A stretch of 64,000 nucleotides of DNA from Prevotella sp. (GCA_016287755.1 JAEEWT010000013.1:48177-112176), one strand, 5' to 3'; counted from the stretch's first letter, positions 13,199 through 60,063 are shown. The notes: generated by a model not told the origin, from the sequence alone. Translations and numbers: made by a program.

Positions 13199-15055
13199 AT
13201 GAAACATTTCCACCCACTTCAAACCGACATTGCACGACCAAAGCAGTTCAATGATCCGTTTGATTACGAGCCACACCCGCTGAGTATCTTAGCGGTAGAA
13301 GAGGTGCAGCAGTATATCATGGAGCACCCTGAGATTAAGGAGGATGCTGATCAAGGGAAGATGTTTGGGGTGTTGGTTGTTTCTCTTCCGAGGAAGGACG
13401 AAGGAGAAAGGAGGAAGGAGATTTCTTCTGAGATACAGAATGAGGGTGCGGGAATTGGATTCTTGGCGGCGTATAGCGGATTGCTGGCTGGCAGGAACGA
13501 CTGGGAGTGGTTTGTGCCACCCGTGTTCGATGCGCAGGATCCTGATGGGTACTTCAAGGTGCATGAGCAGAAGATAACCGAGATGAACCACGAAGTGGAG
13601 TTGTTAGAAAAGGATTTGGATCATCTCTATCACCAGTCCGACTACCTGAAGATGCTTCGTACCACGGAGAACCTGCTCAGTGAACACGAGAAGAAGATGA
13701 AGACCGCTAAGGTGCTGCGCGACATGAAGCGTCTGCAACGCAACATCTCCCCTGAAGAGAATGCGGAGCTAATCCGAGAGAGTCAGTTCATGAAGGCCGA
13801 GATGCGGCGCATCAAGAAGCGCTGTGAGGAACTGGAGAAGCCGTGGAAGGAAAAGGAGCAATCACTGACAGACAGAATTGAACAACTGAAGAAACAACGC
13901 AAGGAGGCATCTGACGACCTACAGCGCTGGCTGTTCTCACAATACAAGATGAGGAACGCGCAGGGTGAGACCAAAGACCTCATCGAGATCTTCAACGACT
14001 ATAACGGTCAGCTACCCCCAGCGGGGTCGGGTGACTGCTGTGCACCGAAACTCCTGCAGTATGCTTTTGAGAACAACCTCCAACCCCTTTGCATGGCCGA
14101 ATTCTGGTGGGGCGCATCGCCCAAGATGGAGATCCGTCATCACCTGAACTATTATCCCGCCTGCAGAGGGAAGTGCCTCCCGATTTTGGGGTGGATGTTA
14201 TCGAGGAGGAAGGACGAAGGAGGAAGGACGAAGGAGATTACTTCTGAGATACAGGATTCGAAGGATTCAGCACAAGACTCATATACACAGGACATTTCTC
14301 CTTCCTCCCTCCTCCTTCCTCCTTCCTCGAAAAATATCCTCTTCGAAGACTCCCACCTCCTCGTGCTGAACAAACCCGCTGGGATGCTGAGTGTGCCGGG
14401 GAAGACTGGGGATGTGAGTGTGGAGAGCATGATGAGGGATTATCTGCATGATGATATGAATCCTATCATCGTGCACCGACTCGATATGGATACCTCAGGA
14501 CTGATGGTCGTTGCCAAGACTAAATGGACTTACACGGAGCTGCAAAAGCAGTTCCTGGAGCATCAGGTAGAGAAAACATACGTGGCTCTATTAGAGCACA
14601 TGCCCGAGGGAAAACCGCTCAAAGGCACCATCTCCCTACCCCTCCGACCGGATATTTATGACCGTCCGCGACAGCTGGTGGATTGGGAGAATGGGAAGGA
14701 GGCGATCACAGAATATTGGATTTCGAGGAAGGACGAAGGAGGAGGGAGGAAGGAGATTACTTCTGAGATACAGGATACAAAGGAGTCTGTTCAGGACACA
14801 GGCACCCAGTACATTTCTCCTTCCTCCTTCGTCCTTCCTCCTTCCTCGATAAGAATAACCCTCCGTCCCCGCACAGGGCGGACCCACCAACTGCGCGTGC
14901 ACTGCGCCCACCAGGAAGGATTGGGGGTGCCGATTGTGGGAGATGCGCTGTATGGACATCGGGCCGACCGCCTTTATCTGCATGCCGAAACACTGTCGTT
15001 CATTCATCCTAAGACGGGTGAACGACTCACCTTCACGGCACCCGCACCATTCTAA
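13199..15055 (+). CDS. rluA: RluA family pseudouridine synthase with long N-terminal domain, carrying three in-frame repeat insertions
   Basis: Start refined to ATG 13199 (MKHFHPL). Motifs GKMFGVLVV, AGSGDCCAPKLLQYA, NKPAGMLSVPG, VHRLDMDTSG, TGRTHQLRVH, RLYLHA. Confidence 0.93.
   Translation: MKHFHPLQTDIARPKQFNDPFDYEPHPLSILAVEEVQQYIMEHPEIKEDADQGKMFGVLVVSLPRKDEGERRKEISSEIQNEGAGIGFLAAYSGLLAGRNDWEWFVPPVFDAQDPDGYFKVHEQKITEMNHEVELLEKDLDHLYHQSDYLKMLRTTENLLSEHEKKMKTAKVLRDMKRLQRNISPEENAELIRESQFMKAEMRRIKKRCEELEKPWKEKEQSLTDRIEQLKKQRKEASDDLQRWLFSQYKMRNAQGETKDLIEIFNDYNGQLPPAGSGDCCAPKLLQYAFENNLQPLCMAEFWWGASPKMEIRHHLNYYPACRGKCLPILGWMLSRRKDEGGRTKEITSEIQDSKDSAQDSYTQDISPSSLLLPPSSKNILFEDSHLLVLNKPAGMLSVPGKTGDVSVESMMRDYLHDDMNPIIVHRLDMDTSGLMVVAKTKWTYTELQKQFLEHQVEKTYVALLEHMPEGKPLKGTISLPLRPDIYDRPRQLVDWENGKEAITEYWISRKDEGGGRKEITSEIQDTKESVQDTGTQYISPSSFVLPPSSIRITLRPRTGRTHQLRVHCAHQEGLGVPIVGDALYGHRADRLYLHAETLSFIHPKTGERLTFTAPAPF
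13389..13438 (+). repeat. Intragenic palindromic element, left arm plus core (rluA copy 1)
   Basis: CGAGGAAGGACGAAGGAGAAAGGAGGAAGGAGATTTCTTCTGAGATACAG, read in frame as PRKDEGERRKEISSEIQ. Confidence 0.85.
14201..14330 (+). repeat. Intragenic palindromic element, complete 130-bp copy (rluA copy 2)
   Basis: TCGAGGAGGAAGGACGAAGG... / ...CCTTCCTCCTTCCTCGA arms with core CTTCTGAGATACAG at 14241; encodes SRRKDEGGRTKEITSEIQ...ISPSSLLLPPSS. Confidence 0.9.
14723..14849 (+). repeat. Intragenic palindromic element, complete 127-bp copy (rluA copy 3)
   Basis: TCGAGGAAGGACGAAGGAGG... / ...CCTTCGTCCTTCCTCCTTCCTCGA with core CTTCTGAGATACAG at 14760; encodes SRKDEGGGRKEITSEIQ...ISPSSFVLPPSS. Confidence 0.9.
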
Positions 15056-25863: not shown

Positions 25864-25965
25864 GAACCATCAGGAACGACCACATCGGTCAGTTCCAAGG
25901 TGCAAAAGTACGAAAAAGAAATGAGATACTGCGCCCATTAACCGATAATTAACTTATTTAATTGA

Positions 25966-28900: not shown

Positions 28901-30483
28901 TCCAAAAATGTCGAATTGTTATCTTTGTATGGTTTATAATACTCTGTCCACTCACTGTTGCATCTCACTGCGGGATAATAACCTTTGGCAAAGCTGAACC
29001 AGTAATCCGCCGTTTCATCATTGGGGAGGAAAGGCATGTCACGGGTATCGCCCGATGACATTTTGATTGTAGTCAATCCGTAAATACTCTTGTGACTGTC
29101 CACATTACCGCAGAGATGTCCTTTGAACATAGTCTTATCGTAATAACAACCACCTACTGTCTCTTCCGGTTTCTTACAATCGCCTACGAAAGCCGCTACC
29201 TTTTCAGTATTTGAAATCGTTCCCGTGAACAAGCAGTTCTCTATTCGAATATCATTGTCCCATTCTGAACAACCACAAATGCCACCTATACCATTGAGCG
29301 AGCGCCCTGCGTTGATATGTCCGCCGTAAGCGCAATAATCCACCTTCGCATAGAGTTCCGATACGTTTTTCCCCTGCATCATATACCCCACGATGCCACC
29401 AATATAGCCTGCCGTTGATACCTTGATCGACATTGTGCTTGCGCAACCGCTTATCTGTGTAGCGTAACACATCTTTCCACCGATGCCACCCAGACAGATG
29501 TTCGCTGCCTGTGTCATGCTTATCTTCCCCATACTACTACAGGCTCTCACCGTCATCATTTCGGCGAGATATCCCACGATACCACCAGCAGCTCCTCCAT
29601 CTGTAGATAACGAGCCTATGTCGATATTCACATCGGCGGCGCAGTCAACAATGGTACCGTCACCCGAAGCCACCACACCACCAACCACCGAACATTTGTC
29701 GACAGATATACTCACTTGCGATGTTGTATGTATTACTCCAACATTTGTGTATAAATAAGCTGCAACACCACCAACATGGATACTCGATCCATCTCCTTCC
29801 GCTTTTATTGTGCCATGTACGCTACAGCCGTCCACTCCTACACCCATTGACATCAATTCCATAGGTCCACGGTTATACTCTGTACAACGAAGATAATTAC
29901 CATCTACCATACCGCACAGTCCGCCAATAAATATGCCAATGTCTTTGTTCGGCTGACGCACATCAATCCATATGTTATTCAGTTTCACACCCATGACGAG
30001 TCCATGCATACGACCGAACAATCCATAGTACATCACATTTTTATCACCAATCGTATTGATATACATTCCCGATATCGAGTGTTTAAGATCTGAGCGCCAT
30101 CCACCGTTCTGCATACTTTTGGTGTTCATACCCAGCAATATACCATGAAAACGATACTGTTTTTTATAACTGGCAGAGCGGTAGCCAATAGGAATCCACT
30201 GTACGCGCTTGCCATCCACCGTCTTGTCCAGGTTGATGTCAGCAGTAAGAATGAAGAACTGTCCCTCGTGAAGATTATTCTCCTCGTTCACCTCATACGC
30301 CAGCTGTGCCAGATGTTCAGGCTTGCTGATCTCATAAGGCTCCATAAACGTACCGCTGCCGTCATAGGGCAGTCGATAGTCGTACCATGTAGGTACATCG
30401 CTGAACTCTGCCGGTACAGCAAAGGCGCTCAATGGGGCAAGGAGCCATAAGAGGCATAACACACTATTGCGAATCGTTTTCAT
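25966..30483 (-). CDS. Large secreted surface protein: two GxGT-xxPY/GLUG-like beta-helical modules, BspA-type LRR, T9SS-like CTD
   Basis: 1505 aa; signal peptide, DGSGTFMEPYEI, AAGTGKKEDPFII, GGLCG/GGIVG repeats, FDGCTSLKEVTIP, terminal WYTLEGVQLSGKPTKKGIYIINGKK. Confidence 0.75.
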   Translation of the reverse strand: MKTIRNSVLCLLWLLAPLSAFAVPAEFSDVPTWYDYRLPYDGSGTFMEPYEISKPEHLAQLAYEVNEENNLHEGQFFILTADINLDKTVDGKRVQWIPIGYRSASYKKQYRFHGILLGMNTKSMQNGGWRSDLKHSISGMYINTIGDKNVMYYGLFGRMHGLVMGVKLNNIWIDVRQPNKDIGIFIGGLCGMVDGNYLRCTEYNRGPMELMSMGVGVDGCSVHGTIKAEGDGSSIHVGGVAAYLYTNVGVIHTTSQVSISVDKCSVVGGVVASGDGTIVDCAADVNIDIGSLSTDGGAAGGIVGYLAEMMTVRACSSMGKISMTQAANICLGGIGGKMCYATQISGCASTMSIKVSTAGYIGGIVGYMMQGKNVSELYAKVDYCAYGGHINAGRSLNGIGGICGCSEWDNDIRIENCLFTGTISNTEKVAAFVGDCKKPEETVGGCYYDKTMFKGHLCGNVDSHKSIYGLTTIKMSSGDTRDMPFLPNDETADYWFSFAKGYYPAVRCNSEWTEYYKPYKDNNSTFLDKEFSIQMFGYENMYRENTVYKTGAWLCSVPVNIPKGDQAYDLVTQVIAPEKNMTWSEAERDVSPNSKVTFQNMDCIRISNDTAYAVTDGMFLATFTMKMAKPIEVWNRPLPLGGTKQLQFTSTVDQVWDGSTATEFAAGTGKKEDPFIIKNGAQLALAVKNNKEGEWYKQICDITLYVNRHGNAPYNPNPFHSLWIDNSWGNKDVKWKAQYDGGSHFVKGAYVDTEGKGLFGDIDKGGAVANLGIIDSHARKGAGLFAGKMNGKITNCIAQGTVGSLHSFDDDYYLDYCGGICSLVGPDNSDAVVEDCISAVYTMMWSFADYTPFVCLSDNNKGVVKNCLTVLPVTHLDKVMQPADITMDGKTYLQDCYWLKGYEEQPTGFTLEEICNSLGKQTRWKNYNGYFPTLKSFAETDMAKLLMVPFRTDIEYKYSEADGSDNYLLGFGKQLLFEPGAATWTSSDADDKRFIEADGDMGVIVPVSASINPIDMNNNLQDHPTVRTFGGLEFIKGTFGKYCHYIPVRTRDLNVNAGFTFVDDNTRDACLAAFDSNNDEVLSLDELKAVTTKQTLEAFQTATAKKIEKFPEFRFFKAVKELTTQLNGLSKLNEVKLPYALETLGSNAFDGCTSLKEVTIPAKVEEVELHPFYNSAIENVSVDPFNEFFVSRDGILFDTNRVLVAFPNGRKGEEAVITGIINEISEGAIYKVEGLKRIYFETEDYETVPYLEDDGIVTTDGNLLDIYVSDATYGSVLMEGYYSDGTWDDYISAGKLHCYYPLKVGSAKVATMYIGFDTELPATLTPFIVTKTNDEGICNDAVDNEPNTAYLLSMSRKVPSRTPVVIFAEDAGTYRLEPLGESLEQWKMYKNMLNGVGRDGMSVYQEDSDRGSILTLGYNSEGELGFFYYLGERIAPYRSYLTHNEVSSQAKYHIIFLDETTGINNTVPQNRVQSEKWYTLEGVQLSGKPTKKGIYIINGKKRILK

Positions 30484-30495
30484 ATGTCTGCTTTT

Positions 30496-33400
30496 TTAAT
30501 ATCTGAACTTAAACATCTCATCTCCGGTGCTGAGCAGATAGACTGCATGATACTGCAGCGGAACGAAGAGAGTAGAATCCGTAACCTGCTTCGAGCAGAC
30601 TGGGATACCATCAGGATTGAAGATACGTACACGCTCACCCTTTTTCAAACCACTCAGATTAACACCATTGTCAACCACAGTTACCTTCACCCGATGGTTC
30701 TTCGTCGGGTTATCAACGGTTGGGCGTTCAATCTTTGTAGGATCGCTTGTCGGGAAGAGGCTTACGTAGACGGGATTCTCCTCGCCATGGAGATTGTCAA
30801 TATGCGAACGTTCCAGTCCGCTTTCTTCAAGATTCGTATCGAACACATGGATGTTGACGAATGCCTTCAATGGTTCTTTAATACCATCGACAGACACGGT
30901 GGCATAGGCCTTACGCACATTACCCATCTGCACGAACTCACTTCCCTTGACAACCACCTCTGCCCCGTCGGTCAGCGGAGCGGCAATACTGGGATGGGCA
31001 TAGATACCCACGAGCACGCCCATATCATCAAGCATCTTGCCATGGTCAATGAGTTCCACTACGAAGGTATTCACACCATTCTCGATGCTGCGGTTCACCA
31101 CATTACATGTTACGTCAGCCAGCAGAACACGTGCTCGCGACATCTGGAGCATTCTCCTTTGATTGTTCAGTCCTCTAACGCGCGGATGCTGCTTAGCCTT
31201 AAAGATATTGTTGTATTCAACACCAACCGAACTGGTGATGTAACCGTCGAAGTTCTCATCGATAGGATACAAAATGGGGAAGTTACATTCTTTCAGAGGT
31301 GCCACATAAGCATCAGGGATATCGAAGTTCTTACCGTTAATGGTTACGTTTACTGCCTGAATGGCTGATGTACCCGTGTTACGTATTCTCACGTTGATAG
31401 GTAAGCTATTGCTACCCTTGAGAGCAGTCTTGGCATACGATACCTCCGCCTCGAAGTTGTTACTGAAATCCTTGCTGTTGGTCATGATCACACCAGAGGA
31501 ACCTTCGATGTCGGCCAGTGTATAGACCACGCTGATATGACTGTCATCGAGGAAACCGTCGAAGTCGGTCATTGTCAGACTGTCGCGCTCGCAGCCCAGC
31601 GTGATAGGTTCAGAGAGCTGGAGTGTGTTACCGAGATGGATGCGAGAAGCATTCAGCAGTGTGCGGATATCAGAGAAGCTGCGTTTGCTGCCGTCCTCAT
31701 TACGATAGACACTACCTGCTTCCGTCCACAATAGGGCAAAGTCGCTGAGATTCACAGCATTGCGGTCGCATACAATCTTCACCTTATTCGGCATGCGAGT
31801 ACCAACGCCCAGATCGGCTCCTTGACGTCCGTCTCCATGTCCGCTCATGGCCAATGTTTTCACGTAAATCTCACTGATCGAGTCGGTTTTCTCATAGAGC
31901 ATAGCGATAACGGCATTGTTACCTACGCGGTGCATCATGAAGTGCTTGGCCAAGATATTATCATCCACATACTTCACCTCATTCGAACCAATGTACTTCG
32001 AGGCATAGCGAGTAACAGAATAATCCTGGTCGTTGGCCAGCAGGTTAGCAGCCACGAGAACGCTGTCGTTACGCATGAGCAGGTCGTAGTGCATGATTGT
32101 ATGATCAAGATCGAGATTGAAATAGAGTGGAGTTGGAGCACTCCATTTCCCATTGCTGAAGGTACGCAGCATGAGCTGACCTTCAAAGGCAACGTTCATG
32201 ATGGAGTCCATCGAAACCGTTTCGTCAACAGGAATGAAATGTCCATGCTGGTAGATGCAGGCTGCCTTGCCATCCTCTTGAATGGTGACAACAGGCTTCA
32301 GGTCGGCCATGCCGTCATCGGTGGTCACATCTGTCATCTTCCATGCCCCGTTACCATCGCGTACAGCAGCCTTGATTACCGAGTGCAGCTGCAGGTTGTT
32401 ACTACTTGTAAGTAGATGATCCTTGTCGATATCCTCGTTGTTCACCTTCTTGGCAATCTGTTCAAACACCACGATCTCATGTTCGCCACGCTTTGAGCGC
32501 ATGTGCCGGCTGGCAGTCAAGCCCTCGGTGGAGATGGTCTCGGTGGTGTTGTTACTGGTGTTGATGATTGCCACGCGGTCGTCTCTATAGTCGGCAGCGT
32601 TACGCAAGTCGTTATATACCACATGATTACCGTCGAGATAGTGCGGATTGGCGTCCAAGGCCACATCGGTAACCAATGCTTCACCGATTTCCTCACTGCT
32701 CTCAGGTGCCCGCAGCGGACGGTAAGCCCTGGCCATCTCTCTTACCTTACTCTTCTCTAACCAATAGGGGAATTCTTTGTGGAAGGGGTTAGTGGGATCG
32801 TTAGGCTTCAAATCCTCATATCCGAAATGCACCTGTCCGCTTCCTGACCATCTGAAGAAAGGCGTCTTCAGGTGGGCATGTGCCTGACCCACAACAAGCA
32901 GGATGGAACGGAAGCCAACTCCTGGCCAATACTCGGCAAACGGTCCTTCAATACCGAACTGCACACCTACCTTAGCACCGAAGCGCAGACCCGCATGGAA
33001 GTTCACCCACGAAGAAAGGTTGAAGCTATGACCAAACACCTTAATGGTCTTAGGTGTGAAGAGGTCGAGCGAAGCTCCGGCAGATACCTTACCGCTGAAA
33101 TGAGCGTAATAGCCCATATTGGTACCCTTCATTGACTCCGACACCCCGTCGATATAAGACTTGATACCGAAGTCAGTCTGCAAGGAAGCCTGGGCAAAGG
33201 CTGTCAATGCGACATAGTTTTTGAAATCTTCGAGAATCTTGGCGAGCTTACCGAACTTCGGGTCTTGGCCCACTTTACCCCAGAAGAGGCCGACGCCATA
33301 GCCTATCTGGCCAGAAGCTTTGGCAATCTGGAAACGGCTGAAGTCGGTAGTAGGCATCTTGAAGTTGAAGGTTGCCCCACCGAACCATCCCTTTCCAACA

Positions 33401-35460
33401 CGCTTGCTGGTCATATCAAAGATATCGTCGATGTCTTCGTATATCCAGCCATCAAGTCCTTTGTCGCTGCCCACAGGGCGCACACTGACCTCATCCTTAG
33501 CCAGTTCGGAGTATTCATAATTCTCTGCGGCCTTCAGCTCATTACGAGCAGCTTTATCCTCGTCGCTCAGCTCACGGTCACCACCATTATAGACGATGTT
33601 CACCTTCAGGTCCCAAAGACTCTTACGGAAGTCGTAACCGAAGGATGTCTTCACCGTAACCGGCTTAAACGAGAACTTGAAGTCGGGTGCAATCTTCAAG
33701 TCGAAACCGCTTTGACCACTAACGTCGTTGACGTTATCCTCGTTGTCGGTAACGTATTTTTCATCAATCTCCTTCTCAGTGTCCTTACGACCTTGACTGC
33801 GGTCGAACACAAAGTTGTGCAGACGGGGGAATTGAGAATACGTATAGTTGCCGGCAGTCAGCTCCAGCTCACAGAAGGATTTCAGTGGTACGACGCCCAC
33901 CAGGTTGAAGTCAACATAGACATAATCGTAGGTAAACGACCTATAAACACTCGCGCTGAGAGTGGTCTGTTCCTTGTCGGTGACCTCATAGACGGAGTGG
34001 GTATTGATGTCGGTGGCAGTCAGCCTACAATTGTCAGTAGCTTCACCCTTGGGCTTTGAAAAGGTCAGCTGTAACTTGGCATATCTCTCTATCGGCGTGT
34101 TGTTCAGCAGCTTGGGATAGTTCTGTCCGCAGTCTTCCGCATAATGCACAGTATCGGCAGGTATCCATGCAGAGAGATCAATCTCGTCGATGGAGCACAG
34201 TACATGGTCCTTGCCGCCCCTGACGATGATTGTTTTCTCATCGTTCAGGTTCAGGAAGCGCTGACTACTGAATGTCAGTCCTCTCTTGTTCACTGTTCCT
34301 GATGTCAGCGTGAGGTCAACGGCACAGCGTTCCTCACTGACGATACCCGTCTCTGGGTCGGCAGGTCCGGCATATTTATACACAACGGGCAGGTAGCCGT
34401 TGACGATAATCTCGATATAGGCAGGATCTCCCATTGTCAGGATCTTGTGGGCGCCCAGTTTCTTGTCGTAACCGATATAGCGCACGGCCGTATTTCCCGT
34501 GGGCAGTCCTCTCTCATCCACGCTCTCCACATGGAATTGTCCGCTTGTCAGCTGACGGCTGCGGTCGTTCCAAAGAGAGAGGTAGAGGGTGTCGTATTTC
34601 TCAAACAAGCCAGATCCCAGCCAGTTGAAATTCATGAATTCGCGGTTCTCATGTTTGTCGAGATAGAAATTATCCGACAGCTCCATATATTTGAACCGGT
34701 CGTTCAGGTCGATACCCGGATGTAGCTTCTTCTTGTTAATTCGTAGCTTATTACCTTTGCTCACAAAGATCACGTCGAGCAGATCCTTACCCTCGGGCAC
34801 ATAGAAGCTCTGGAATGAAGTTGACTGCAACTCCAAACGTGCCGTGTCACGTTCGATGACACCTTCCTCGTTCATGCTACCCGTCACGCACTCCAGCGAA
34901 TAGGGTAGGTTCTCGGCCTGTCGTTTCTGGTCAAGCTGGAAGATATAGAGTTTATCGTTGTTCCATCCCTTGATGAAGTAACGGAATCGATAGCGCTTTT
35001 CCGGCTCACCTACGCGATGCACAGTAACCTCATAGGGCTCCTCCTGTAAGGGTAGGTTCACAAAGAAGTAATCACTGACGGTCTGTGTGAGCTTCTTCCC
35101 GCTACCGTTGTCGAGTGACACCTCATAGGCGCTCGAAGTGTCGCCGTGTCCGTCAATGCGGAAGCACAGCAACGAGTGGTCGCGCATGGTCCAGAACTGC
35201 TGCAGGTCGGCCAGCCATTTCTTACGGGATGAACCCAGCATGTCGATGATGTTGTCCACCTCGACATAGTTACCCGACATATCCCCCTCGGCCGTCTGTA
35301 CCTTTGTCCAACGTAGTCCGGAGTTCGGTGATTTGATCTCATCGAAGTTCGTCACCTGTGTTACGTTATTGGCGAAGTATAGGTCGAAGTCAGGTTTTTG
35401 TGCCCAGGCAGTCATCACGCCCAGCACAAAAAGCAAGCTGTTAAGTATGAATCTCCTCAT
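30496..35460 (-). CDS. Large secreted protein of unknown function (beta-rich core, propeller-like repeats, CARDB-like domain, T9SS-like CTD)
   Basis: 1654 aa; signal peptide MRRFILN..AWA, WSAPTPL, VRIRNTGTS, terminal VRIFNPDG...VYLLSTGDEMFKFRY. Confidence 0.7.
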   Translation of the reverse strand: MRRFILNSLLFVLGVMTAWAQKPDFDLYFANNVTQVTNFDEIKSPNSGLRWTKVQTAEGDMSGNYVEVDNIIDMLGSSRKKWLADLQQFWTMRDHSLLCFRIDGHGDTSSAYEVSLDNGSGKKLTQTVSDYFFVNLPLQEEPYEVTVHRVGEPEKRYRFRYFIKGWNNDKLYIFQLDQKRQAENLPYSLECVTGSMNEEGVIERDTARLELQSTSFQSFYVPEGKDLLDVIFVSKGNKLRINKKKLHPGIDLNDRFKYMELSDNFYLDKHENREFMNFNWLGSGLFEKYDTLYLSLWNDRSRQLTSGQFHVESVDERGLPTGNTAVRYIGYDKKLGAHKILTMGDPAYIEIIVNGYLPVVYKYAGPADPETGIVSEERCAVDLTLTSGTVNKRGLTFSSQRFLNLNDEKTIIVRGGKDHVLCSIDEIDLSAWIPADTVHYAEDCGQNYPKLLNNTPIERYAKLQLTFSKPKGEATDNCRLTATDINTHSVYEVTDKEQTTLSASVYRSFTYDYVYVDFNLVGVVPLKSFCELELTAGNYTYSQFPRLHNFVFDRSQGRKDTEKEIDEKYVTDNEDNVNDVSGQSGFDLKIAPDFKFSFKPVTVKTSFGYDFRKSLWDLKVNIVYNGGDRELSDEDKAARNELKAAENYEYSELAKDEVSVRPVGSDKGLDGWIYEDIDDIFDMTSKRVGKGWFGGATFNFKMPTTDFSRFQIAKASGQIGYGVGLFWGKVGQDPKFGKLAKILEDFKNYVALTAFAQASLQTDFGIKSYIDGVSESMKGTNMGYYAHFSGKVSAGASLDLFTPKTIKVFGHSFNLSSWVNFHAGLRFGAKVGVQFGIEGPFAEYWPGVGFRSILLVVGQAHAHLKTPFFRWSGSGQVHFGYEDLKPNDPTNPFHKEFPYWLEKSKVREMARAYRPLRAPESSEEIGEALVTDVALDANPHYLDGNHVVYNDLRNAADYRDDRVAIINTSNNTTETISTEGLTASRHMRSKRGEHEIVVFEQIAKKVNNEDIDKDHLLTSSNNLQLHSVIKAAVRDGNGAWKMTDVTTDDGMADLKPVVTIQEDGKAACIYQHGHFIPVDETVSMDSIMNVAFEGQLMLRTFSNGKWSAPTPLYFNLDLDHTIMHYDLLMRNDSVLVAANLLANDQDYSVTRYASKYIGSNEVKYVDDNILAKHFMMHRVGNNAVIAMLYEKTDSISEIYVKTLAMSGHGDGRQGADLGVGTRMPNKVKIVCDRNAVNLSDFALLWTEAGSVYRNEDGSKRSFSDIRTLLNASRIHLGNTLQLSEPITLGCERDSLTMTDFDGFLDDSHISVVYTLADIEGSSGVIMTNSKDFSNNFEAEVSYAKTALKGSNSLPINVRIRNTGTSAIQAVNVTINGKNFDIPDAYVAPLKECNFPILYPIDENFDGYITSSVGVEYNNIFKAKQHPRVRGLNNQRRMLQMSRARVLLADVTCNVVNRSIENGVNTFVVELIDHGKMLDDMGVLVGIYAHPSIAAPLTDGAEVVVKGSEFVQMGNVRKAYATVSVDGIKEPLKAFVNIHVFDTNLEESGLERSHIDNLHGEENPVYVSLFPTSDPTKIERPTVDNPTKNHRVKVTVVDNGVNLSGLKKGERVRIFNPDGIPVCSKQVTDSTLFVPLQYHAVYLLSTGDEMFKFRY

Positions 35461-35472
35461 GGTATTACTGTT

Positions 35473-35610
35473 TTAATAAGCATCATCAGTACCGTCATAC
35501 GGATCAAAACGCATCGTCTTACTTTCACTGATACTGCCGGCAAGCAGTTGCTGCTCGCTATGCGTAAAGAGAATCTTCATGCAAGGTTTCAAGTATTTTT
35601 TCTTCTTCAT
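35473..35610 (-). CDS. 45-aa small peptide with KKxYxKP...LLAGS leader-like motif (absent from the ORF track)
   Basis: Translates MKKKKYLKPCMKILFTHSEQQLLAGSISESKTMRFDPYDGTDDAY*; stop lies 12 bp before the ATG of the 1654-aa gene; a TAtcTTTG box is upstream on the minus strand (~35666-35673). Confidence 0.75.
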   Translation of the reverse strand: MKKKKYLKPCMKILFTHSEQQLLAGSISESKTMRFDPYDGTDDAY

Positions 35611-35939
35611 ATTCATAGGGCAAATTAATAAACGATTGAGTTAAACAATGTTATGTCATTATTGTGACAAAGATACGAAAATAATCTTTTACACTTATTA
35701 TAACATTCTTAAAAAATATTAATCAAAACCATTTCATTGTTCATTACTGTATCATTATTGTTTTCTACATGCAAAGTTACAATGGTTCTGAATATATGTC
35801 ATGTATTTGTGTGGTTTTTTTCTCGGTTGTTACGACAAAAGGGGTGATATTGCGACAAAACAGTATTAGCCCCGTTATTTCTGTCGCATCATGGTAAAAA
35901 ACAGACAAAGAAGGTTGCGGGTGTGGGAATACAAAAAGC

Positions 35940-36560
35940 CTATGCAAAAAGGGCATGCCAATGCAGGAAACGACGCACTCCTTCCTCACCAAATTTGGCC
36001 AGACTGCGTTCCGCCTGTTCCACTGTTTTTTCTATTTCGGGTCGTGTCTTGGAAAAGAACTTATCAGCATAGCATATCAGTTGTTCTTCCAAGGTCTCGG
36101 GCAGGAAGGGCTCATATGTTGTGGAGTGTGGAGTGTGGGGTGTGGAGTGAGAACACTTCTGCGATACACGAGAAATGTTTGTGGAGGGAGGAGGTGGAAT
36201 GGTGATGGGTAGGTGTTGTGATTGGATCTCGGCAACGGTCAGGCCAGCTCCTGTATGACGCTCACAAACCCGTGCATGACGGGGGAAGCCTTCTGCCCGC
36301 ATAATCTCTGCCCCTATCTGTCCGTGACACACATACGGTTCGGTACCGAAACATTCAATGCCAGGTGCATCGCAACGGAAGATGCCGATGTCGTGGAGCA
36401 TTGCTGCCTCCTCCACGAACTGACGGTCGAGGTGCAGTTCCGGATGTGCATCACAAATCTGCAGAGCCTTATCTGCCACTGCCCTGCTATGAACGAGGAG
36501 AATGCGTTTCAGCGCATTCTCCTCGGGATAATACTTATTAATGATACGATTAAAATCCAT
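35940..36560 (-). CDS. HD/HDIG domain metal-dependent phosphohydrolase with in-frame repeat insertion
   Basis: Start refined to ATG 36560. Motifs LVHSRAVA, AMLHDIG, CHGQIGA, ERHTGAG, ICYADKFFSK. Confidence 0.88.
   Translation of the reverse strand: MDFNRIINKYYPEENALKRILLVHSRAVADKALQICDAHPELHLDRQFVEEAAMLHDIGIFRCDAPGIECFGTEPYVCHGQIGAEIMRAEGFPRHARVCERHTGAGLTVAEIQSQHLPITIPPPPSTNISRVSQKCSHSTPHTPHSTTYEPFLPETLEEQLICYADKFFSKTRPEIEKTVEQAERSLAKFGEEGVRRFLHWHALFA
36121..36196. repeat. Intragenic heptamer element in the HD gene
   Basis: (GTGGAGT)n-GAGAACA-CTTCTGCGATACAC-GAGAAATG; core matches the rluA element 12/14. Encodes PPPPSTNISRVSQKCSHSTPHTPHST. Confidence 0.8.
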
Positions 36561-36561
36561 A

Positions 36562-38337
36562 TCAATTCTCTGCGCGCTCAATCCACGCGATGGTGTCGCC
36601 CTTGTTCACCTTAGCACCCTGCTTGGCTGTGATCTCTACGAGCTTACCGCCGAGAGCAGCGGGAATCTCCGTGATTTCACCCCAAGGTGTCTGGATGTAA
36701 CAGAAAGTCTGACCTTCTTTGTAGGTCTGACCGATGAACGGCTCCACACAAGGTGCGCACTCACCGTCGCCATTGAACTCATAGTAGATCTGTCCTTTGA
36801 CAGGTGCCACGAGGGCATCGGCCTTGGCATGCTTGAACTCTGCAATCTTCTCAGGTGAGAGTTTTGTACCGAGGCGTGAATCCTTGATCTTCTGGATGTC
36901 AGCCAGCAGGTTCTTCTTCGCCATACCGCTCTTGAACGGACGGTACTGCTCGGGGTGCATAGCCAGCTCATAGAGTTCCTCATCATCTGGTCCATAATCC
37001 CATCCGTTCTCGTCCATCTCCTTACGGAAGTCGTCCAACGCATTGGGAATGAGTGAGCGCGGATCAGCATCTGTGAACTCACGACCCTGCTGCTTGGCAA
37101 GTTCCACAATCTCTGGAGCGATCGTTCCAGGAATCTTACCGCTCTTGCCGAGGATCATGCCCCACATAGCATCGTCCATCATCACGAAACGACCCTTGCC
37201 CTGTGCCATGGTAAGCAGGTTCATCAAGGCAATGTTCTTCACGTACTGACTGAACGGGGTTACCAGTGGTGGATATCCCACGCGCGGCCATACGTAAGCC
37301 ACCTCGTCGAACAGTTTCACGAGCATATCGTCGGTAGAAAGTTCTGGTTCTCCCTTGGCCTTCAGCGTCTTGTTGATAATACTATGAATACCGGCAAGGT
37401 CGGCCATCATTGATCCCATCATACCGCCAGGGAGTCCGCAGCCGAGGAGGAGTGATGACATGAGTTTGTTACCCGGATTGATGAAGTAGCCAAGCCAGTC
37501 ATCAATGAACTCCTGGGTCAAGGCACGGGCCTGCATATAAGCATTCATGTTGATTTCCTTCACCTCGAAGCCCTCATGCTTCAGCATCGACTGAACGGAA
37601 ATGATATCCGGATGCACCTTACCCCATGACAGCGGTTCGATAGCTGTATCAATTACGTCGGCACCGTTGTTGCAGACCTCCAGGATGGAAGCCATTGACA
37701 AACCGGGTCCAGAATGTCCGTGATACTGGATGATTACATCGGGGTGCTTGGTCTTGATCGACTTGGTCAGGGCACCTAACAGGGCGGGCTGACCGATACC
37801 GGCCATATCCTTCAAGCAGATTTCCTCTGCTCCTGCAGCAATCACCTGATCAGCGATATCTGAATAGTACTCCACGGTATGCACAGGAGAAGTAGTAATA
37901 CACAGGGTAGCCTGTGGGGTCATGCCAGCGGCCTTGGCCCACTTCACGGAAGGAATGATGTTACGTACATCGTTCAAACCGCAGAAGATACGGGGAATAT
38001 CAACGCCCTGCGCATGCTTTACCTTGTATTGCAACTCACGCACATCATCGGGCACAGGATACATACGCAACGCATTCAGACCGCGATCGAGCATGTGTGT
38101 CTTGATGCCCACCTGGTTGAACGGTTTACAGAATGCCCTAACGGCAGCGTTTGGATTCTCACCTGCCAGCAGGTTTACCTGCTCGAAGGCACCACCATTG
38201 GTCTCCACACGGTCGAACACGCCCATGTCGATAATGGCTGGTGCGATACGCTCCAACTGGTCTTTACGCGGCTGGAACTTACCTGAACTCTGCCACATGT
38301 CACGATAGACAAGACTAAACTGGATTCTTTTCTTCAT
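36562..38337 (-). CDS. Oxaloacetate decarboxylase alpha / pyruvate carboxylase B-like carboxyltransferase with atypical biotinyl-like C-terminal domain
   Basis: 591 aa; RDMWQS, ETNGGA, ICLKDMAG, QYHGHS, GYPPLVTPFSQ. Confidence 0.85.
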   Translation of the reverse strand: MKKRIQFSLVYRDMWQSSGKFQPRKDQLERIAPAIIDMGVFDRVETNGGAFEQVNLLAGENPNAAVRAFCKPFNQVGIKTHMLDRGLNALRMYPVPDDVRELQYKVKHAQGVDIPRIFCGLNDVRNIIPSVKWAKAAGMTPQATLCITTSPVHTVEYYSDIADQVIAAGAEEICLKDMAGIGQPALLGALTKSIKTKHPDVIIQYHGHSGPGLSMASILEVCNNGADVIDTAIEPLSWGKVHPDIISVQSMLKHEGFEVKEINMNAYMQARALTQEFIDDWLGYFINPGNKLMSSLLLGCGLPGGMMGSMMADLAGIHSIINKTLKAKGEPELSTDDMLVKLFDEVAYVWPRVGYPPLVTPFSQYVKNIALMNLLTMAQGKGRFVMMDDAMWGMILGKSGKIPGTIAPEIVELAKQQGREFTDADPRSLIPNALDDFRKEMDENGWDYGPDDEELYELAMHPEQYRPFKSGMAKKNLLADIQKIKDSRLGTKLSPEKIAEFKHAKADALVAPVKGQIYYEFNGDGECAPCVEPFIGQTYKEGQTFCYIQTPWGEITEIPAALGGKLVEITAKQGAKVNKGDTIAWIERAEN

Positions 38338-45499: not shown

Positions 45500-45829
45500 T
45501 TACTTCTGGGGCTGTGCAGCTGAAGAAGAAGCGTCGGGGAAGACATAGCCTCTGTCAACACGGAGCGTCACGCCTTTTGCTACCTCCACCTCTACAGTGT
45601 TCGAAGCAAGGTCTATACGGCGTACTACACCATGGATTCCTCCACCGGTGATTACTTGGGCCCCTTCTGCCAGATTGTTCTGGAAGTTACGGATCTCCTT
45701 CTGTTTCTTCTGCTGAGGACGAATCATCGTAAACCACATGATGGCGAAAATAGCCACCATCATGATCAGGAAACTCATATTACCTGCGCCCTGACCGGCT
45801 GCCTGAGCTGCCAAAAATACTGTTGTCAT
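45500..45829 (-). CDS. yajC: Preprotein translocase subunit YajC
   Basis: MWFTMIRPQQKKQKE, VITGGGIHG. Confidence 0.95.
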   Translation of the reverse strand: MTTVFLAAQAAGQGAGNMSFLIMMVAIFAIMWFTMIRPQQKKQKEIRNFQNNLAEGAQVITGGGIHGVVRRIDLASNTVEVEVAKGVTLRVDRGYVFPDASSSAAQPQK

Positions 45830-45849
45830 ATTATTAATGTTTTATGATT

Positions 45850-56518: not shown

Positions 56519-57520
56519 TTACTCTAACAGCTTACGTGCCAACTCCTCTGCCTCCTTCCGTGCCGGCTTCCCTGTGGCGGTCATGGGTAGGTGATCAACG
56601 AAAAGGGTGTGGCGGGGGGACCAGTATGGGGGGAGTGTGGAGTGTGGAATGTGGAATGTGGAGTGAGATATGCTTTTAGTTTGTGAATCCTCATATAGCA
56701 GCACTCCCACCTCTCCGAACTTCTCATCCTTCACCTTGGTCACCATAAACGGAACGGGAATATGGGGTTTCAGTAAACGCTCCAGCTCCTCGATCTGAAT
56801 CTTGATGCCTCCGGAGCAAATCACATTGTCTTTTCTGCCTAAGATACGGAAGCAACGACCGTCAGGACCGAACTCAGCAATATCGTTCGTAACAATCATC
56901 TCGTTACATACATGGGGGGCATGGATTACCAGACAGTGTTCATCATTCAGCGACACATCCACGCCATCAAAGGGAACATAGTAACTACTTGCCTCTGCAC
57001 CATTCAGTCGGCGCAGTGCTATATGCGAGAGTGTTTCCGTCATCCCGTACGTACTCCACACGAAATGAGGGAAATCTTTCAACGCCTGTGCCAGGTCATC
57101 ATCAATAGCACCTCCACCAATTATCAAGTGCCTGATATTCATCAGCTTGTCACGTTCTTCTGGTACCTGCAAGGTATTATATACCTGCATGGGAACCATG
57201 GCGGCAAAGTCGATTGGTTGTTCTATGCTGACCAACGGATGTCCGCTGGGCTCCACAGTGATCAGTCTCATCTTACGTTCCAAGGCTCGCACCACCATCA
57301 TCTTCCCCGCAATATAATCGGTAGAAAGACAAAGCAAGGCAGTATCTTCTTCCTTCAGTCCGAGGAAATCGCACGTGATACGGGCAGATGCCAGCATGCG
57401 CCGCTTCTCCACCCACAACGGCTTGGGCTTACCCGTAGAGCCGCTGGTGTGCACAAGGATCTTGTCGCTGGCATCGTTCCACGCAGCAAGAAAACGGTTT
57501 GTAGTTTCGGTTGCTGGCAT
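56519..57520 (-). CDS. menE: o-succinylbenzoate--CoA ligase (short Bacteroidota form)
   Basis: TSGSTGKPK, YGMTET, GRKDNVICSGG, TATGKP; lies near menC and menB. Confidence 0.85.
   Translation of the reverse strand: MPATETTNRFLAAWNDASDKILVHTSGSTGKPKPLWVEKRRMLASARITCDFLGLKEEDTALLCLSTDYIAGKMMVVRALERKMRLITVEPSGHPLVSIEQPIDFAAMVPMQVYNTLQVPEERDKLMNIRHLIIGGGAIDDDLAQALKDFPHFVWSTYGMTETLSHIALRRLNGAEASSYYVPFDGVDVSLNDEHCLVIHAPHVCNEMIVTNDIAEFGPDGRCFRILGRKDNVICSGGIKIQIEELERLLKPHIPVPFMVTKVKDEKFGEVGVLLYEDSQTKSISHSTFHIPHSTLPPYWSPRHTLFVDHLPMTATGKPARKEAEELARKLLE
56632..56673. repeat. Intragenic heptamer tract in menE
   Basis: GGAGTGTGGAGTGTGGAATGTGGAATGTGGAGTGAGATATGC; encodes ISHSTFHIPHSTL. Confidence 0.75.
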
Positions 57521-58983: not shown

Positions 58984-60063
58984 CTACTCCTGCTTATACC
59001 ACAATTGATCACCTATGATCTCCAACGGCATAGGGATATTGTCGGTGAACAGCTGTCCTGTTCCCAAGCCCTGCGGACGTTGGATGTGCGGACCATAGAG
59101 ATAGGCCGTGAGGTGAGCAATGGCATTCAGACCGACATTGCTCTCCAATGCACTGGTAATCCATGAGCCGATATGACGGTCGTTAGCCAGATCAATCCAC
59201 TCCTTCGTACCCGCCATTCCTCCATGGAGAGAGGGCTTCAGAATGATATAGGCAGGTTTGATGATGTCGAGCAACTGACCTTTCGTATAGGAATCGTTCA
59301 CACCGATGAGTTCCTCGTCGAGGGCGATAGGTATCGGCGACTCCCTGCAAAGGAAAGCCATGTCGCCCCACTGTCCCTGACGAATAGGCTGCTCGATGGA
59401 ATGAATATCATACAACGACAACTGCTCCAGTTTCTGCAAGGCATCATCGGGCGAGAAGGCACCATTCGCATCTACCCGCAGCTCAATCTCCCGCCTACTG
59501 TAACGGCTCCTGATCTTCTTGAGCAACTCCAATTCCTGATTGAAATCGATAGCCCCGATCTTCAGCTTGACACAATGGAAGCCCTGCGCCAACTTCTGTT
59601 CAATACGCTCTCGCATCTCTTCAAAAGTACCCATCCAAACAAGTCCGTTAATGGGAATCCCTTCTTCTCCCCTACCGAAGGGAGTGTCGAAAAGCATCGT
59701 GGAACCAACCTGCAGGTTCAAGAGCGCTGTTTCCAGACCGAAGAGCATGGAGGGGTAGTCTTGTGGAGTGTGGAGTGTGGAGTGTGGAGTGAGAATAGTT
59801 CGAGGAAGGAGGAGGGAGGAAGGAGGAAGGAGATTACCAATAGGATTCTCTGAAACAAAGGATTCGCAGAAAGTAGAGAGTTTTTCTGCATAATTGGGGA
59901 TATCGTCGCACGACAGATTCGGTAGGGGCGCACACTCCCCTATGCCCTGCCTACCGTTCTCATCGGTCAGGGTGATAAACCAGGAACGACGGGTGGTGTA
60001 AGTACCACGGGATGTTCCGGCTGGCTGCTTGAAGTGCAGCACTCGTTCTTGTATTTTATACAT
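58984..60063 (-). CDS. menC: o-succinylbenzoate synthase with in-frame repeat insertion
   Basis: GIGECAPLP, INGLVWMG, KLKIG, RVDANG, EQP, ALDEEL, ILKPSLHGG, SALES. Confidence 0.93.
   Translation of the reverse strand: MYKIQERVLHFKQPAGTSRGTYTTRRSWFITLTDENGRQGIGECAPLPNLSCDDIPNYAEKLSTFCESFVSENPIGNLLPPSSLLLPRTILTPHSTLHTPQDYPSMLFGLETALLNLQVGSTMLFDTPFGRGEEGIPINGLVWMGTFEEMRERIEQKLAQGFHCVKLKIGAIDFNQELELLKKIRSRYSRREIELRVDANGAFSPDDALQKLEQLSLYDIHSIEQPIRQGQWGDMAFLCRESPIPIALDEELIGVNDSYTKGQLLDIIKPAYIILKPSLHGGMAGTKEWIDLANDRHIGSWITSALESNVGLNAIAHLTAYLYGPHIQRPQGLGTGQLFTDNIPMPLEIIGDQLWYKQE
59763..59840. repeat. Intragenic chimeric heptamer element in menC
   Basis: (GTGGAGT)4-GAGAATAGT joined to TCGAGGAAGGAGGAGGGAGGAAGGAGGAAGGAGATTAC, the rluA-type arm; encodes GNLLPPSSLLLPRTILTPHSTLHTPQ. 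Confidence 0.85.

What the first reader, a model, noticed from the sequence alone, without database searches (positions are those of the whole stretch)
36121..36196. Same element core inserted in frame in an HD-domain protein, with different heptamer arms
Seen: (GTGGAGT)n arms lead into CTTCTGCGATACAC, a 12/14 match to the rluA core, followed by GAGAAATG, the reverse complement of the rluA right-arm CATTTCTC. In this minus-strand gene it adds about 26 aa (PPPPSTNISRVSQKCSHSTPHTPHST) between LP and FLPETLEEQ. Inference: the core is conserved while arm heptamers are interchangeable, suggesting recognition of a core site plus structure rather than arm sequence.
Basis: partly seen in the sequence, partly recalled or inferred. 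Interest (0 to 1): 0.65.

Follow-up and report, generated by a model that had tools for sequence, protein, structure and literature searches.

The report
Relic hairpin-cassette end inside HD gene
A rumen Prevotella enzyme gene carries, in frame and in a floppy surface loop, a worn-down end piece of a selfish DNA hairpin family whose 7-base-repeat arms are swapped between close strains and which turns out to share its ends with small gene cassettes of the kind known from ribosomal-RNA intervening sequences.

Summary
At 36121-36177 four GTGGAGT heptamers run into GAGAACAC and CTTCTGCGATACAC, a 12/14 match to the rluA copies at the same offset from the arm. Most orthologues (139 of 161) lack the segment.

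It is one arm plus the subterminal end of a dispersed repeat family. The genome holds 395 period-7 arrays against 0 in a shuffle. The segment is translated as a disordered loop of the HD protein. It has no second inverted arm, only a 9-bp mini-hairpin.

Within one species complex (~95% DNA identity) the same codon position holds different contents: a GTGGAGT arm with the core, the same with its 10-nt hairpin loop inverted, a GAGGAAG arm, short remnants, or other heptamers. Arm type also differs at the orthologous menE and menC sites.

New here: PF05635 "S23p" genes, the four-helix-bundle protein of 23S rRNA intervening sequences, are flanked in this clade by inverted heptamer arrays of the same types, and the purine-rich types examined share the GAGAWWWS motif. 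70% of the genome's arrays share their exact unit with one of 26 such cassettes (1.9% expected).

"Recognition of core plus structure" is untested. How the elements move is unknown.

The parts
35940..36581 (-). HD-domain (HDIG-type) phosphohydrolase gene that hosts the insert. The ORF as listed starts at TTG 36581; orthologues start at MDFNR, which is the ATG at 36560.
   Evidence: ORF list; Pfam HD E 1.9e-07; 8000 homologues, with the best named ones annotated as Prevotella HDIG proteins.
36117..36120 (+). Outer terminus TGTT of the element. The family consensus outside the arm is TT[T/C].
   Evidence: Position-specific composition of 65 type-A arm flanks: T 77% at -2 and T/C 97% at -1.
36121..36148 (+). 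Type-A arm: four heptamers GTGGAGT GTGGAGT GTGGGGT GTGGAGT. Read on the gene strand it encodes HSTPHTPHS.
   Evidence: The arm pattern has 82 hits in this genome, 0 in 16 same-genus genomes of the family sample and 0-2 in 24 same-genus relatives.
36149..36156 (+). Subterminal motif GAGAACAC (family consensus GAGAWWWS), directly after the arm.
   Evidence: Subterminal 8-mers of 69 type-A and 30 type-B arms. The same motif sits at both ends of S23p cassettes.
36156..36169 (+). 'Core' CTTCTGCGATACAC, the L-end of the family core. It matches the rluA copies 12/14; strain L011 matches 13/14.
36152..36179 (+). Mini-hairpin AACACTTCT-GCGATACACG-AGAAATGTT. The 10-nt loop is inverted in strain L001.
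   Evidence: RNA fold of the gene strand: -9.7 kcal/mol, z -3.1. Loop identity to L001 is 2/10 direct and 8/10 as reverse complement; chance of 8/10 or better is 4e-4.
36170..36177 (+). Second subterminal-type motif GAGAAATG, in direct orientation and followed by TTT.
   Evidence: The same order 'arm-GAGAAATG-(A)TTT-arm' occurs at C10:142485 and C4:157161 and, as GAGAATAG-TTC, in menC.
36181..36208 (+). Arm-like G-rich stretch GTGGAGG GAGGAGG TGGAATG GTGATGG. It encodes ITIPPPP, which is older loop sequence shared with relatives that lack the element.
   Evidence: DNA of orthologues L008, L013, L014 and L016, which encode I(T/V)(I/V)PPPP without heptamer arms.
56632..56700 (+). Comparison site (menE region): a solo type-A arm plus GAGATATGC. 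The orthologous arm is type B in G340 and G341.
59762..59840 (+). Comparison site (menC): A arm, GAGAATAG, B arm, GAGATTAC. G340 has one A unit fewer. In G341 the arm order is B...A with the subterminal motifs in the same order.
13386..14852 (+). The three rluA copies (type-B arms; the two at 14202-14333 and 14721-14852 are full hairpins) that carry the reference core.
   Evidence: No indel of 7 nt or more in G340.

Best explanation
The segment is a decayed end fragment (outer TGTT, one four-unit heptamer arm, the subterminal GAGAWWWS motif and about 20 nt of the adjoining core) of a hairpin-forming selfish repeat family.

**What the family is.** Intact members are about 115-125 bp hairpins with two inverted arms of 4-5 tandem heptamers. 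The family shares arm types with small cassettes that carry a PF05635 'S23p' four-helix-bundle gene, the protein family of 23S rRNA intervening sequences. The purine-rich arm types (A, B, GCAAGAA and relatives) also share the subterminal motif with them. The gene-less hairpins are therefore best read as MITE-like derivatives of such cassettes.

**History of this copy.**
- A copy entered the DNA for a tolerant, already expanded surface loop of the HD protein in the ancestor of this species complex.
- It replaced about 24 nt and is translated as a disordered His/Ser/Thr/Pro-rich loop.
- The site has since been remodelled quickly. The arm was replaced by another arm type, most likely copied from another genomic copy by ectopic recombination or by re-insertion. 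Units were gained and lost by slippage. A 10-nt loop was inverted through the mini-hairpin. Internal parts were deleted.

**Shown:** family membership, the in-frame state, absence from most orthologues, arm swaps at orthologous sites, the loop inversion, and the S23p-cassette link.

**Inferred:** the direction of derivation (cassette to gene-less hairpin), the mechanism of arm exchange, and that this one-armed copy is now immobile and neutral.
For: **Family membership**
- Arm, subterminal motif and core sit at the family's fixed spacing.
- The genome has 395 period-7 arrays against 0 in a shuffled genome. At a stricter cut-off there are 290 arrays of period 7 against at most 52 for any other period from 4 to 12.
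- Array length peaks at 4-5 units: 294 of 395.

**Insertion and translation**
- 139 of 161 orthologues have the short LPLPxQDFLPET form.
- The ORF is intact.
- In the AlphaFold2 model, residues 122-163 are coil between two helices, with pLDDT below 50 at 135-154.

**Remodelling**
- Six different contents occur at one codon position among sequences 86-98% identical in the flanks.
- The type-B arm of L002/L012 carries the family-wide variant pattern GAGGAAG GACGAAG GAGGAAG. This argues for copying from another element rather than drift in place.
- Arm types differ at the orthologous menE and menC sites of G000, G340 and G341.
- There is a one-unit slippage difference in menC.
- The hairpin loop is inverted: 2/10 direct against 8-9/10 as reverse complement.

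**S23p link**
- 21 of 26 PF05635 genes in six genomes of the clade have period-7 arrays beside them, 14 on both sides.
- One cassette (G344:C27, locus L198) has type-A arms with GAGAATAGTACT, the first 12 nt of the canonical gene-less core.
- Others have type-B arms. The GCAAGAA-armed one reads GAGATTACTTCTGC, matching rluA GAGATTACTTCTGA and HD ACTTCTGCG.
- 276 of 395 arrays of this genome share their exact unit with a cassette arm, against 1.9% for random heptamers.
- 18 of 20 S23p genes from 20 Bacteroidales families have a 7-10-nt tandem array within 350 nt.
- The Coxiella S23p intervening sequence has strain-variable tandem heptamers before the ORF (PMC4990558).
Against: - No movement was observed. 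The three rluA copies are unchanged between genomes about 95% identical.
- No target-site duplication is visible at 20 aligned full copies.
- No known transposase partner was found: Y1 transposase is absent, and S23p has no known catalytic activity.
- Beyond 12-24 subterminal bases, the canonical gene-less core does not match the interior of the S23p cassettes I fetched. The parent-derivative link therefore rests on arms plus subterminal motif only.
- Arm change could partly arise in place. Intermediate units (GAGGAGT, GAGGAGG, GTGGAGG) exist and slippage is documented.
- The older 12-aa loop might itself be an even older relic, which would blur 'insertion' and 'native loop'.
- Several comparison sequences are metagenome assemblies, where repeats can be mis-assembled. 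L009 looks chimeric.
Confidence: 0.72

Rival explanations
1. The segment is a native low-complexity linker. It would be ordinary loop-coding DNA that expanded in place by replication slippage, with no mobile or copied element involved.
For: - The site was already a variable, Pro-rich loop in a wider clade.
- Unit-number slippage is seen in menC.
- The L006/L020 arrays (CATCTCT)n could have grown from the local ATCTCT of L008-type sequences.
- Heptamer simple repeats are over-represented in many bacteria (PMC4692102).
Against: - Slippage does not create the non-repetitive GAGAACAC plus CTTCTGCGATACAC at the family's exact offset.
- It does not create the outer TT[T/C] terminus.
- It does not produce a type-B arm with the family-wide GACGAAG variant in a sister strain.
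- The same arm types occur 82 (A-arm pattern) and about 56 (B-type arrays) times elsewhere, with shared ends.
Confidence: 0.07
2. The HD loop, menE and menC sites are preferred targets, and each strain's content is a separate fresh insertion of a different family member rather than remodelling of one old insertion.
For: - At least four unrelated contents occupy the HD loop within a narrow clade (A type, B type, the AGAGATG type, and the L007 insert), against none in 139 other orthologues.
- Full but different elements sit at the same menE position in G340 and G000.
- The flanks are G-rich and arm-like (GGAGGGAGGAGGTGG), which could attract homology-dependent integration.
Against: - All six YEP-type variants share the same right junction (..TCC[T/A]C[G/A]A.. 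TAYGAGCC). WIN and L002 also share the left stretch CCTCCCTCCAC. This fits one founding event followed by internal replacement.
- WIN and G341 share both junctions at menE and differ in the arm and in the middle of the core.
- No empty YEP-type site was found.
Confidence: 0.15
3. The insert is a selected, functional addition to the enzyme, for example a variable surface loop, or a regulatory RNA or DNA structure inside the gene.
For: - The ORF is kept open in every variant.
- The mini-hairpin folds better than all 200 shuffles as RNA.
- WIN and G340 keep the same insert at about 95% genome identity.
Against: - Sequence and length are hypervariable among near-identical strains, and one strain inverts the loop, changing 6 residues.
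- The region is predicted to be disordered.
- Remaining in frame is what any surviving insertion in a needed gene must show.
- As single-stranded DNA the region folds no better than shuffles (z -0.8).
Confidence: 0.05

Closest known systems
23S rRNA intervening sequences carrying an S23p ORF (Coxiella burnetii helix-45 IVS; also Leptospira and others; PMC4990558)
   Same: - Both are hairpin-forming selfish inserts.
- The loop carries a PF05635 four-helix-bundle gene.
- Tandem heptamers lie next to the ORF and vary in number between strains (GACAGAT in Coxiella).
- The S23p of the type-A cassette matches the solved Xanthomonas XCC0516 structure, deposited with five chains (2GSC, E 2.8e-16).
   Different: - Here the cassettes lie between ordinary genes, not in rRNA.
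- Both arms are 4-5-unit heptamer arrays.
- Each cassette has its own heptamer.
- Gene-less derivatives and solo arms number in the hundreds and sit inside protein-coding genes.
- The HD copy has no ORF and no second arm.
- RNase III excision, shown for rRNA IVSs, is untested here.
Rickettsia palindromic elements (RPE; Ogata et al. 2000, from my own knowledge)
   Same: Both are short dispersed palindromic repeats found in frame inside unrelated housekeeping genes, translated, and located in permissive surface regions.
   Different: There is no sequence relation. RPE arms are not tandem heptamers, no gene-bearing relative is known for RPEs, and arm-type swapping at orthologous sites has not been described for them.
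Heptameric simple-sequence repeats: cyanobacterial STRR, and Xanthomonas GGGAATC / Nostoc GGGGAYT arrays (PMC4692102)
   Same: All are dispersed tandem heptamers, sometimes in convergent (inverted) pairs, with extensive length and sequence variation between close relatives.
   Different: Those are described as intergenic and without a defined non-repetitive end or gene-bearing relative. Here arrays have a narrow length (4-5 units), fixed termini (TT[T/C] ... GAGAWWWS for the purine-rich types), occur in ORFs (about 103 of 395), and match S23p cassette arms.
MITEs and REP/REPIN-RAYT systems; the P. gingivalis BrickBuilt minisatellite MITE (PMC4596501)
   Same: All are non-autonomous inverted-repeat elements apparently derived from a gene-bearing relative. 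BrickBuilt also combines tandem repeats with inverted ends in a Bacteroidota genome.
   Different: No transposase or RAYT is present (PF01797 absent) and no target duplication is seen. In BrickBuilt the tandem repeats are internal 23-mers; here the tandem repeats are the inverted arms themselves.

Membership tests
Heptamer-armed hairpin repeats of this Prevotella clade (A/B types) | Arm of 4-5 tandem heptamers with outer TT[T/C] | tested here: met
   TGTT plus four GTGGAGT-type units at 36117-36148.
Heptamer-armed hairpin repeats of this Prevotella clade (A/B types) | Subterminal GAGAWWWS directly inside the arm | tested here: met
   GAGAACAC at 36149-36156. The 8-mer spectrum of 99 arm ends is.
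Heptamer-armed hairpin repeats of this Prevotella clade (A/B types) | L-end core (..CTGAGATA..) at fixed offset | tested here: met
   CTGCGATA, 1 mismatch; the 14-mer matches 12/14 against 0.41 chance hits expected.
Heptamer-armed hairpin repeats of this Prevotella clade (A/B types) | Second, inverted arm giving a long hairpin | tested here: not met
   No inverted arm is present. The DNA fold is -4.7 kcal/mol, z -0.8, against -23.4 kcal/mol, z -3.1 for an rluA copy. This is a truncated member.
S23p (PF05635) IVS-like cassette | Carries an S23p ORF | tested here: not met
   There is no ORF inside the 60-nt segment. S23p genes lie elsewhere.
S23p (PF05635) IVS-like cassette | Ends built of inverted short tandem arrays plus the shared subterminal motif | tested here: inconclusive
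   One such end is present in HD. Cassettes with the same arm type and GAGAATAG/GAGATTAC ends exist in G344, G340, G345 and G000.
S23p (PF05635) IVS-like cassette | Excised from the transcript by RNase III | not testable with these tools
MITE (classical) | Target-site duplication and a cognate transposase with the same terminal repeats | tested here: not met
   No duplication at 20 aligned full copies. No Y1 transposase. No long element with these arms other than S23p cassettes.
REP/REPIN-RAYT | RAYT (Y1 transposase) gene in the genome | tested here: not met
   PF01797 has 0 matches in G000, while the control genomes ring.
Rickettsia palindromic elements | In-frame, translated palindromic insert in housekeeping genes | tested here: inconclusive
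   In-frame and open: yes. Palindromic: only the 9-bp mini-hairpin remains in this copy. There is no sequence relation; this is an analogy only.
Heptameric simple-sequence repeats (STRR/LSSR) | Tandem heptamer array with no further defined structure | tested here: not met
   The array is present, but it comes with fixed non-repetitive ends and a narrow length distribution.

The most novel reading that the evidence does not exclude
S23p proteins (pentameric four-helix-bundle toroids) may be sequence-specific binders of their own 4-5-unit heptamer arrays. In this reading each paralogue is matched to its own heptamer 'address', and this pairing maintains or spreads both the gene-bearing cassettes and the hundreds of gene-less hairpins and solo arms. 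That would give intervening-sequence proteins, whose role has been unknown since the 1990s, a function. It would also explain why arms can be exchanged as modules while the subterminal sequence stays. The evidence here is circumstantial only: arrays peak at 4-5 units, each cassette has its own heptamer, and S23p is a pentamer (PMC4990558; 2GSC).
Probability: 0.15. Interest if true: 0.85.

Novelty: new variant of a known kind. Interest (0 to 1): 0.62.

Why it matters
**The HD insert alone.** It is one more in-frame copy of a repeat family that this scan has met several times in Prevotellaceae.

**What this site adds.**
1. It gives a dated, multi-strain series. The arms are exchanged as modules at fixed positions, and a hairpin loop flips, within roughly species-level divergence. 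The family is therefore a live source of protein-loop and indel variation in rumen Prevotella.
2. It ties the heptamer arrays to PF05635 S23p cassettes. These are relatives of the 23S rRNA intervening sequences, whose origin, mobility and protein function are long-standing open questions.

If the link holds, the hundreds of heptamer arrays in these genomes become a natural record of how such cassettes spread and decay. S23p also becomes directly testable as an array-binding protein.

**Practical consequences.** These repeats break and mis-join metagenome assemblies (see L009). They also inflate the apparent diversity of orthologous proteins.

Tried and rejected
- **Rfam.** A scan of eight canonical elements gave only sub-threshold microRNA-precursor look-alikes, which are generic long hairpins. 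No known RNA family matched.
- **Transposase partner.** Y1 transposase/RAYT (PF01797) is absent from the genome, so a REP/RAYT system is rejected.
- **Larger elements.** A search for pairs of same-type inverted arms 170-4000 bp apart found only neighbouring small elements in G000.
- **Viral contigs.** No exact match to the type-A arm end.
- **Reverse transcriptase in trans.** The only RT in G000 is a UG26-class defence-type RT at C25. A solo type-A arm lies 0.7 kb away behind radC, but nothing links the two. Not pursued.
- **GxxExxY nuclease genes.** They are flanked by inverted arrays of 8-10-nt units, not heptamers. The design is parallel, but they are not the partner of this family.
- **Target-site duplication or target motif.** Only the TT[T/C] terminus and C-poor flanks were found.
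- **Literature.** No description of heptamer-armed hairpins in Prevotella, or of tandem-repeat arms around non-rRNA S23p genes, turned up. Elhai et al. 2008 on small dispersed repeats nested in cyanobacterial heptamers is not held and is cited from memory only.

Full report
**1. The observation**

- On the plus strand, TGTT is followed by GTGGAGT GTGGAGT GTGGGGT GTGGAGT (36121-36148).
- Then come GAGAACAC (36149-36156), CTTCTGCGATACAC (36156-36169) and GAGAAATG (36170-36177).
- After TTT there is a G-rich stretch GTGGAGG GAGGAGG TGGAATG GTGATGG.

Tandem Repeats Finder reports a period-7 array of 4.3 copies at 36120-36149. The 14-mer differs at two positions from CTTCTGAGATACAG, which occurs three times in rluA. 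With up to two mismatches the window holds four matches, all beside heptamer arms. The expectation is 0.41, and none of 100 shuffles reaches four.

The segment lies in a minus-strand ORF (35940-36581) that matches Pfam HD. Orthologues begin at MDFNR, so the true start is probably the ATG at 36560.

**2. It is an insertion, and the site is hypervariable**

I located the region between the conserved HTGAG and PET motifs in 161 orthologous loci from genomes and metagenomes. 139 have the short ancestral form LPL-PxQD-FLPET.

A rumen Prevotella clade has a 12-13-residue loop expansion (LPIxxPPxP......WEPF). Its length is stable across species only 67-73% identical to the window protein, and it is not visibly repeat-derived.

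Inside that loop, the window's own species complex carries different DNA at one and the same codon position. Flank identity within the complex is 86-98%.

| Sequence(s) | Content at the site |
|---|---|
| window, G340 (L011) | A arm plus core |
| L001 | the same, but with the 10-nt loop of the mini-hairpin reverse-complemented |
| L003 | a bare A arm |
| L002, G341 (L012) | GAGGAAG-type (B) arm followed by GATTAT |
| L004, L005 | short B remnants |

For the L001 loop, identity to the window is 2/10 direct and 8/10 as reverse complement. It is 9/10 against G340. The chance of 8/10 or better is 4e-4.

A sister group has (CATCTCT)n arrays of two lengths (L006, L020) or an unrelated 54-nt insert (L007).

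All YEP-type variants share the right junction, and WIN and L002 share the left one. That favours one founding insertion followed by internal replacement. The B arm of L002 carries the variant order GAGGAAG GACGAAG GAGGAAG that many B arms elsewhere in the genome show. This points to copying from another element rather than drift in place.

**3. The same behaviour at neighbouring sites**

G340 and G341 are collinear with the window at about 95% identity.
- **menE site (about 56632).** The window has five GTGGAGT/GTGGAAT units before GAGATATGC. G341 and G340 have five GAGGAAG units before the same GAGATATGC. G341 shares the right junction with the window, and G340 has a full, different element there.
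- **menC site (about 59762).** The window and G340 read A arm, GAGAATAG/C, B arm, GAGATTAC/G, with one A unit fewer in G340. G341 reads B arm, a different core, GAGAATAC, A arm, GAGATTAG.
- **rluA.** The three copies show no indel of 7 nt or more in G340.

So arm type changes while the subterminal motif stays.

**4. The family**

The genome (3.21 Mb, 48 contigs) has 395 period-7 arrays of at least 18 nt, against none in a shuffled genome. At a stricter cut-off, period 7 gives 290 arrays and no other period from 4 to 12 gives more than 52.

Length peaks sharply at 4-5 units (294 of 395). On a rough gene map, about 103 arrays lie inside ORFs.

Full A-type members are about 115-125 bp and read:

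TT[T/C] (GTGGAGT)4 GAGAATAG TACTGAGATAnAGTATTCATATAC..CCACTTGTACTTGAAGCATATCTC (ACTCCAC)4 [A/G]AA

B-type, GCAAGAA-type and chimeric members share the GAGAWWWS motif and the CTGAGATA-type L-end.

The HD copy is therefore one arm plus the L-end. It cannot form the long hairpin: the DNA fold is -4.7 kcal/mol with z -0.8, against -23.4 kcal/mol with z -3.1 for an rluA copy. Only a 9-bp mini-hairpin remains.

The A-arm pattern has 82 hits in this genome. It has none in the 16 same-genus genomes of the family-wide sample and 0-2 in 24 same-genus relatives. It has 5-54 in six genomes (G340-G345) that carry the expanded HD loop. One further expanded-loop genome (G346, 1.9 Mb) has none.

**5. Effect on the protein**

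In an AlphaFold2 model built from 36 homologues (mean pLDDT 78), residues 122-163 are coil between helices 116-121 and 164-173. pLDDT is below 50 at 135-154. The insert is a disordered surface loop. Both A and B heptamers are free of stop codons in all six frames, which explains why these types survive inside genes.

**6. The link to S23p cassettes**

G000 has six such genes. Three are flanked by inverted heptamer arrays, and three by arrays of GTTCAAA plus small GC hairpins.

The gene at C7:36002-36319 is bracketed as follows:
- upstream: (GCAAGAA)n GAGATTAC ATTTGAGATTAGG...
- downstream: ...GCAGAAGTAATCTC (TTGCTTC)n

Both ends therefore read arm-GAGATTAC, and one continues TTCTGC, as in rluA (GAGATTACTTCTGAG) and HD (ACTTCTGCG).

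In five related genomes, 18 of the 20 best S23p genes have period-7 arrays beside them. Over all 26 cassettes, 14 have them on both sides and 7 on one. Examples:
- G344:C27 (L198) is an S23p gene between A arms. Its ends are GAGAATAGTACT (the first 12 nt of the canonical gene-less core) and GAGAATAC.
- G340 and G345 have S23p genes between B arms.
- Others carry AAAGTTC, AATTGAA, AACTGTC, AATTATC, AGAGATG, AAACATT and further units.

276 of the 395 arrays of G000 share their exact consensus unit, up to rotation and strand, with an arm of one of these 26 cassettes. The figure for random heptamers is 1.9%.

In a sample of 20 S23p genes from 20 other Bacteroidales families, 18 have a 7-10-nt tandem array within 350 nt, and 12 of those are period 7.

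The S23p of the A-type cassette matches the solved Xanthomonas protein XCC0516 (2GSC, five chains, E 2.8e-16).

The literature gives one precedent. The Coxiella 23S rRNA intervening sequence has three, or in some strains two, tandem GACAGAT heptamers before its S23p ORF. The same paper notes that S23p forms a pentameric toroid of unknown function, and that intervening sequences have been proposed to be mobile elements whose ORF aids mobility (PMC4990558).

**7. How it most likely works**

*Shown.* The HD segment is a truncated member of the heptamer-armed family. It is a lineage-specific in-frame insert in a disordered loop. Arm type is exchanged at fixed sites on a short time scale. Units slip, and a hairpin loop inverts. 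The arm types, and for the purine-rich types the subterminal motif, are those of S23p cassettes.

*Inferred.*
- The gene-less hairpins descend from S23p cassettes by loss of the ORF, as MITEs descend from insertion sequences.
- Solo arms such as the HD copy are decay products.
- Arm exchange is copying from other genomic copies, by ectopic recombination or repair templated on another element, anchored on the shared subterminal sequence. The alternative is renewed insertion into an existing relic.
- The loop flip is the classical hairpin-mediated template switch.

How intact elements move is unknown. No transposase, target duplication or active transposition was seen.

**8. What is known and what is new**

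The closest known things are:
- S23p-bearing rRNA intervening sequences (same protein family, hairpin, heptamers);
- Rickettsia palindromic elements (same in-frame habit, no relation);
- heptameric simple repeats of cyanobacteria and Xanthomonas (PMC4692102);
- MITE/REPIN systems.

I found no description of heptamer-armed hairpins in Prevotella, of S23p cassettes with tandem-repeat arms outside rRNA, or of arm swapping at orthologous sites. The library searched does not hold most subscription journals.

I therefore class this as a new variant of a known kind. The HD copy alone is a modest finding. The series of strain variants and the S23p link raise its value.

**9. Limits**
- Several comparison sequences are metagenome assemblies. 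One (L009/P0019) is identical to the window species upstream and only 68% identical downstream, with the break about 12 codons before the insert, and it may be an assembly chimera.
- The gene map used for 'inside ORFs' is approximate.

Noticed in passing
window 25671-35941: A 10-kb stretch that includes the 1654-aa secreted-protein gene (30496-35460) is replaced by about 300 nt in G340 and about 55 nt in G341. It is a strain-specific island right next to the HD gene.
   Followed up: partly
window 60043-60599: The GxxExxY (PD-(D/E)xK-type) gene cassette, with its inverted arrays, is absent from G340: 53 nt stand in its place. The region is also shorter in G341. Five paralogues in the genome are each bracketed by inverted arrays of their own 8-10-nt unit.
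   Followed up: partly
window 4340-4358 and 5236 (empty here); G340:C44 about 44815-44945 and 45825-45958: G340 has two extra ~130-bp elements of a third core family (TGGAGCAGCGAG...GTCGTGACAAAAGTCATGGAACG) with GAACTTT and AACTATG arms. The first replaces 17 nt of the window sequence rather than being a clean insertion. The same core sits inside the menC site of G341.
   Followed up: partly
G000 C31:32279-32468, C38:36052-36236, C4:152999-153188, C43:1321-1507, C7:52242-52437: A further family has a ~120-135-nt AT-rich core (TAAGGTCGTT or TAAGCACCTT ... ATTATATATATAAT ...) between inverted four-unit arms. The arms differ from copy to copy: GTTGCAT, GTCCCAT, ATGTTTC, AAATAAC.
   Followed up: no
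G000 C25:92365-93624 (L218:2865-4124): The only reverse transcriptase of the genome is a UG26-class defence-type RT with a 169-aa upstream ORF of no known family. A solo type-A arm lies 0.7 kb downstream, between radC and a metallophosphoesterase gene. No functional link was shown.
   Followed up: partly
L009 (ERZ914792 scaffold_19091), gene 724-1260: This HD gene is 95% identical to the window upstream of the insert site and 68% identical downstream, and it has no insert. The break lies about 12 codons before the site. It is either a recombinant or an assembly chimera at the repeat.
   Followed up: partly
G000 C4:45092-50621: Three S23p genes lie within 5.5 kb. Each is flanked by long arrays in which GTTCAAA-type units alternate with small GC-rich hairpins (for example GGCCTGACGGCC), a composite arm design.
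   Followed up: no
window 36560-36581: The listed ORF starts at TTG 36581 and overlaps the end of the upstream carboxylase gene. Orthologues indicate the ATG at 36560 (MDFNR) as the start.
   Followed up: yes
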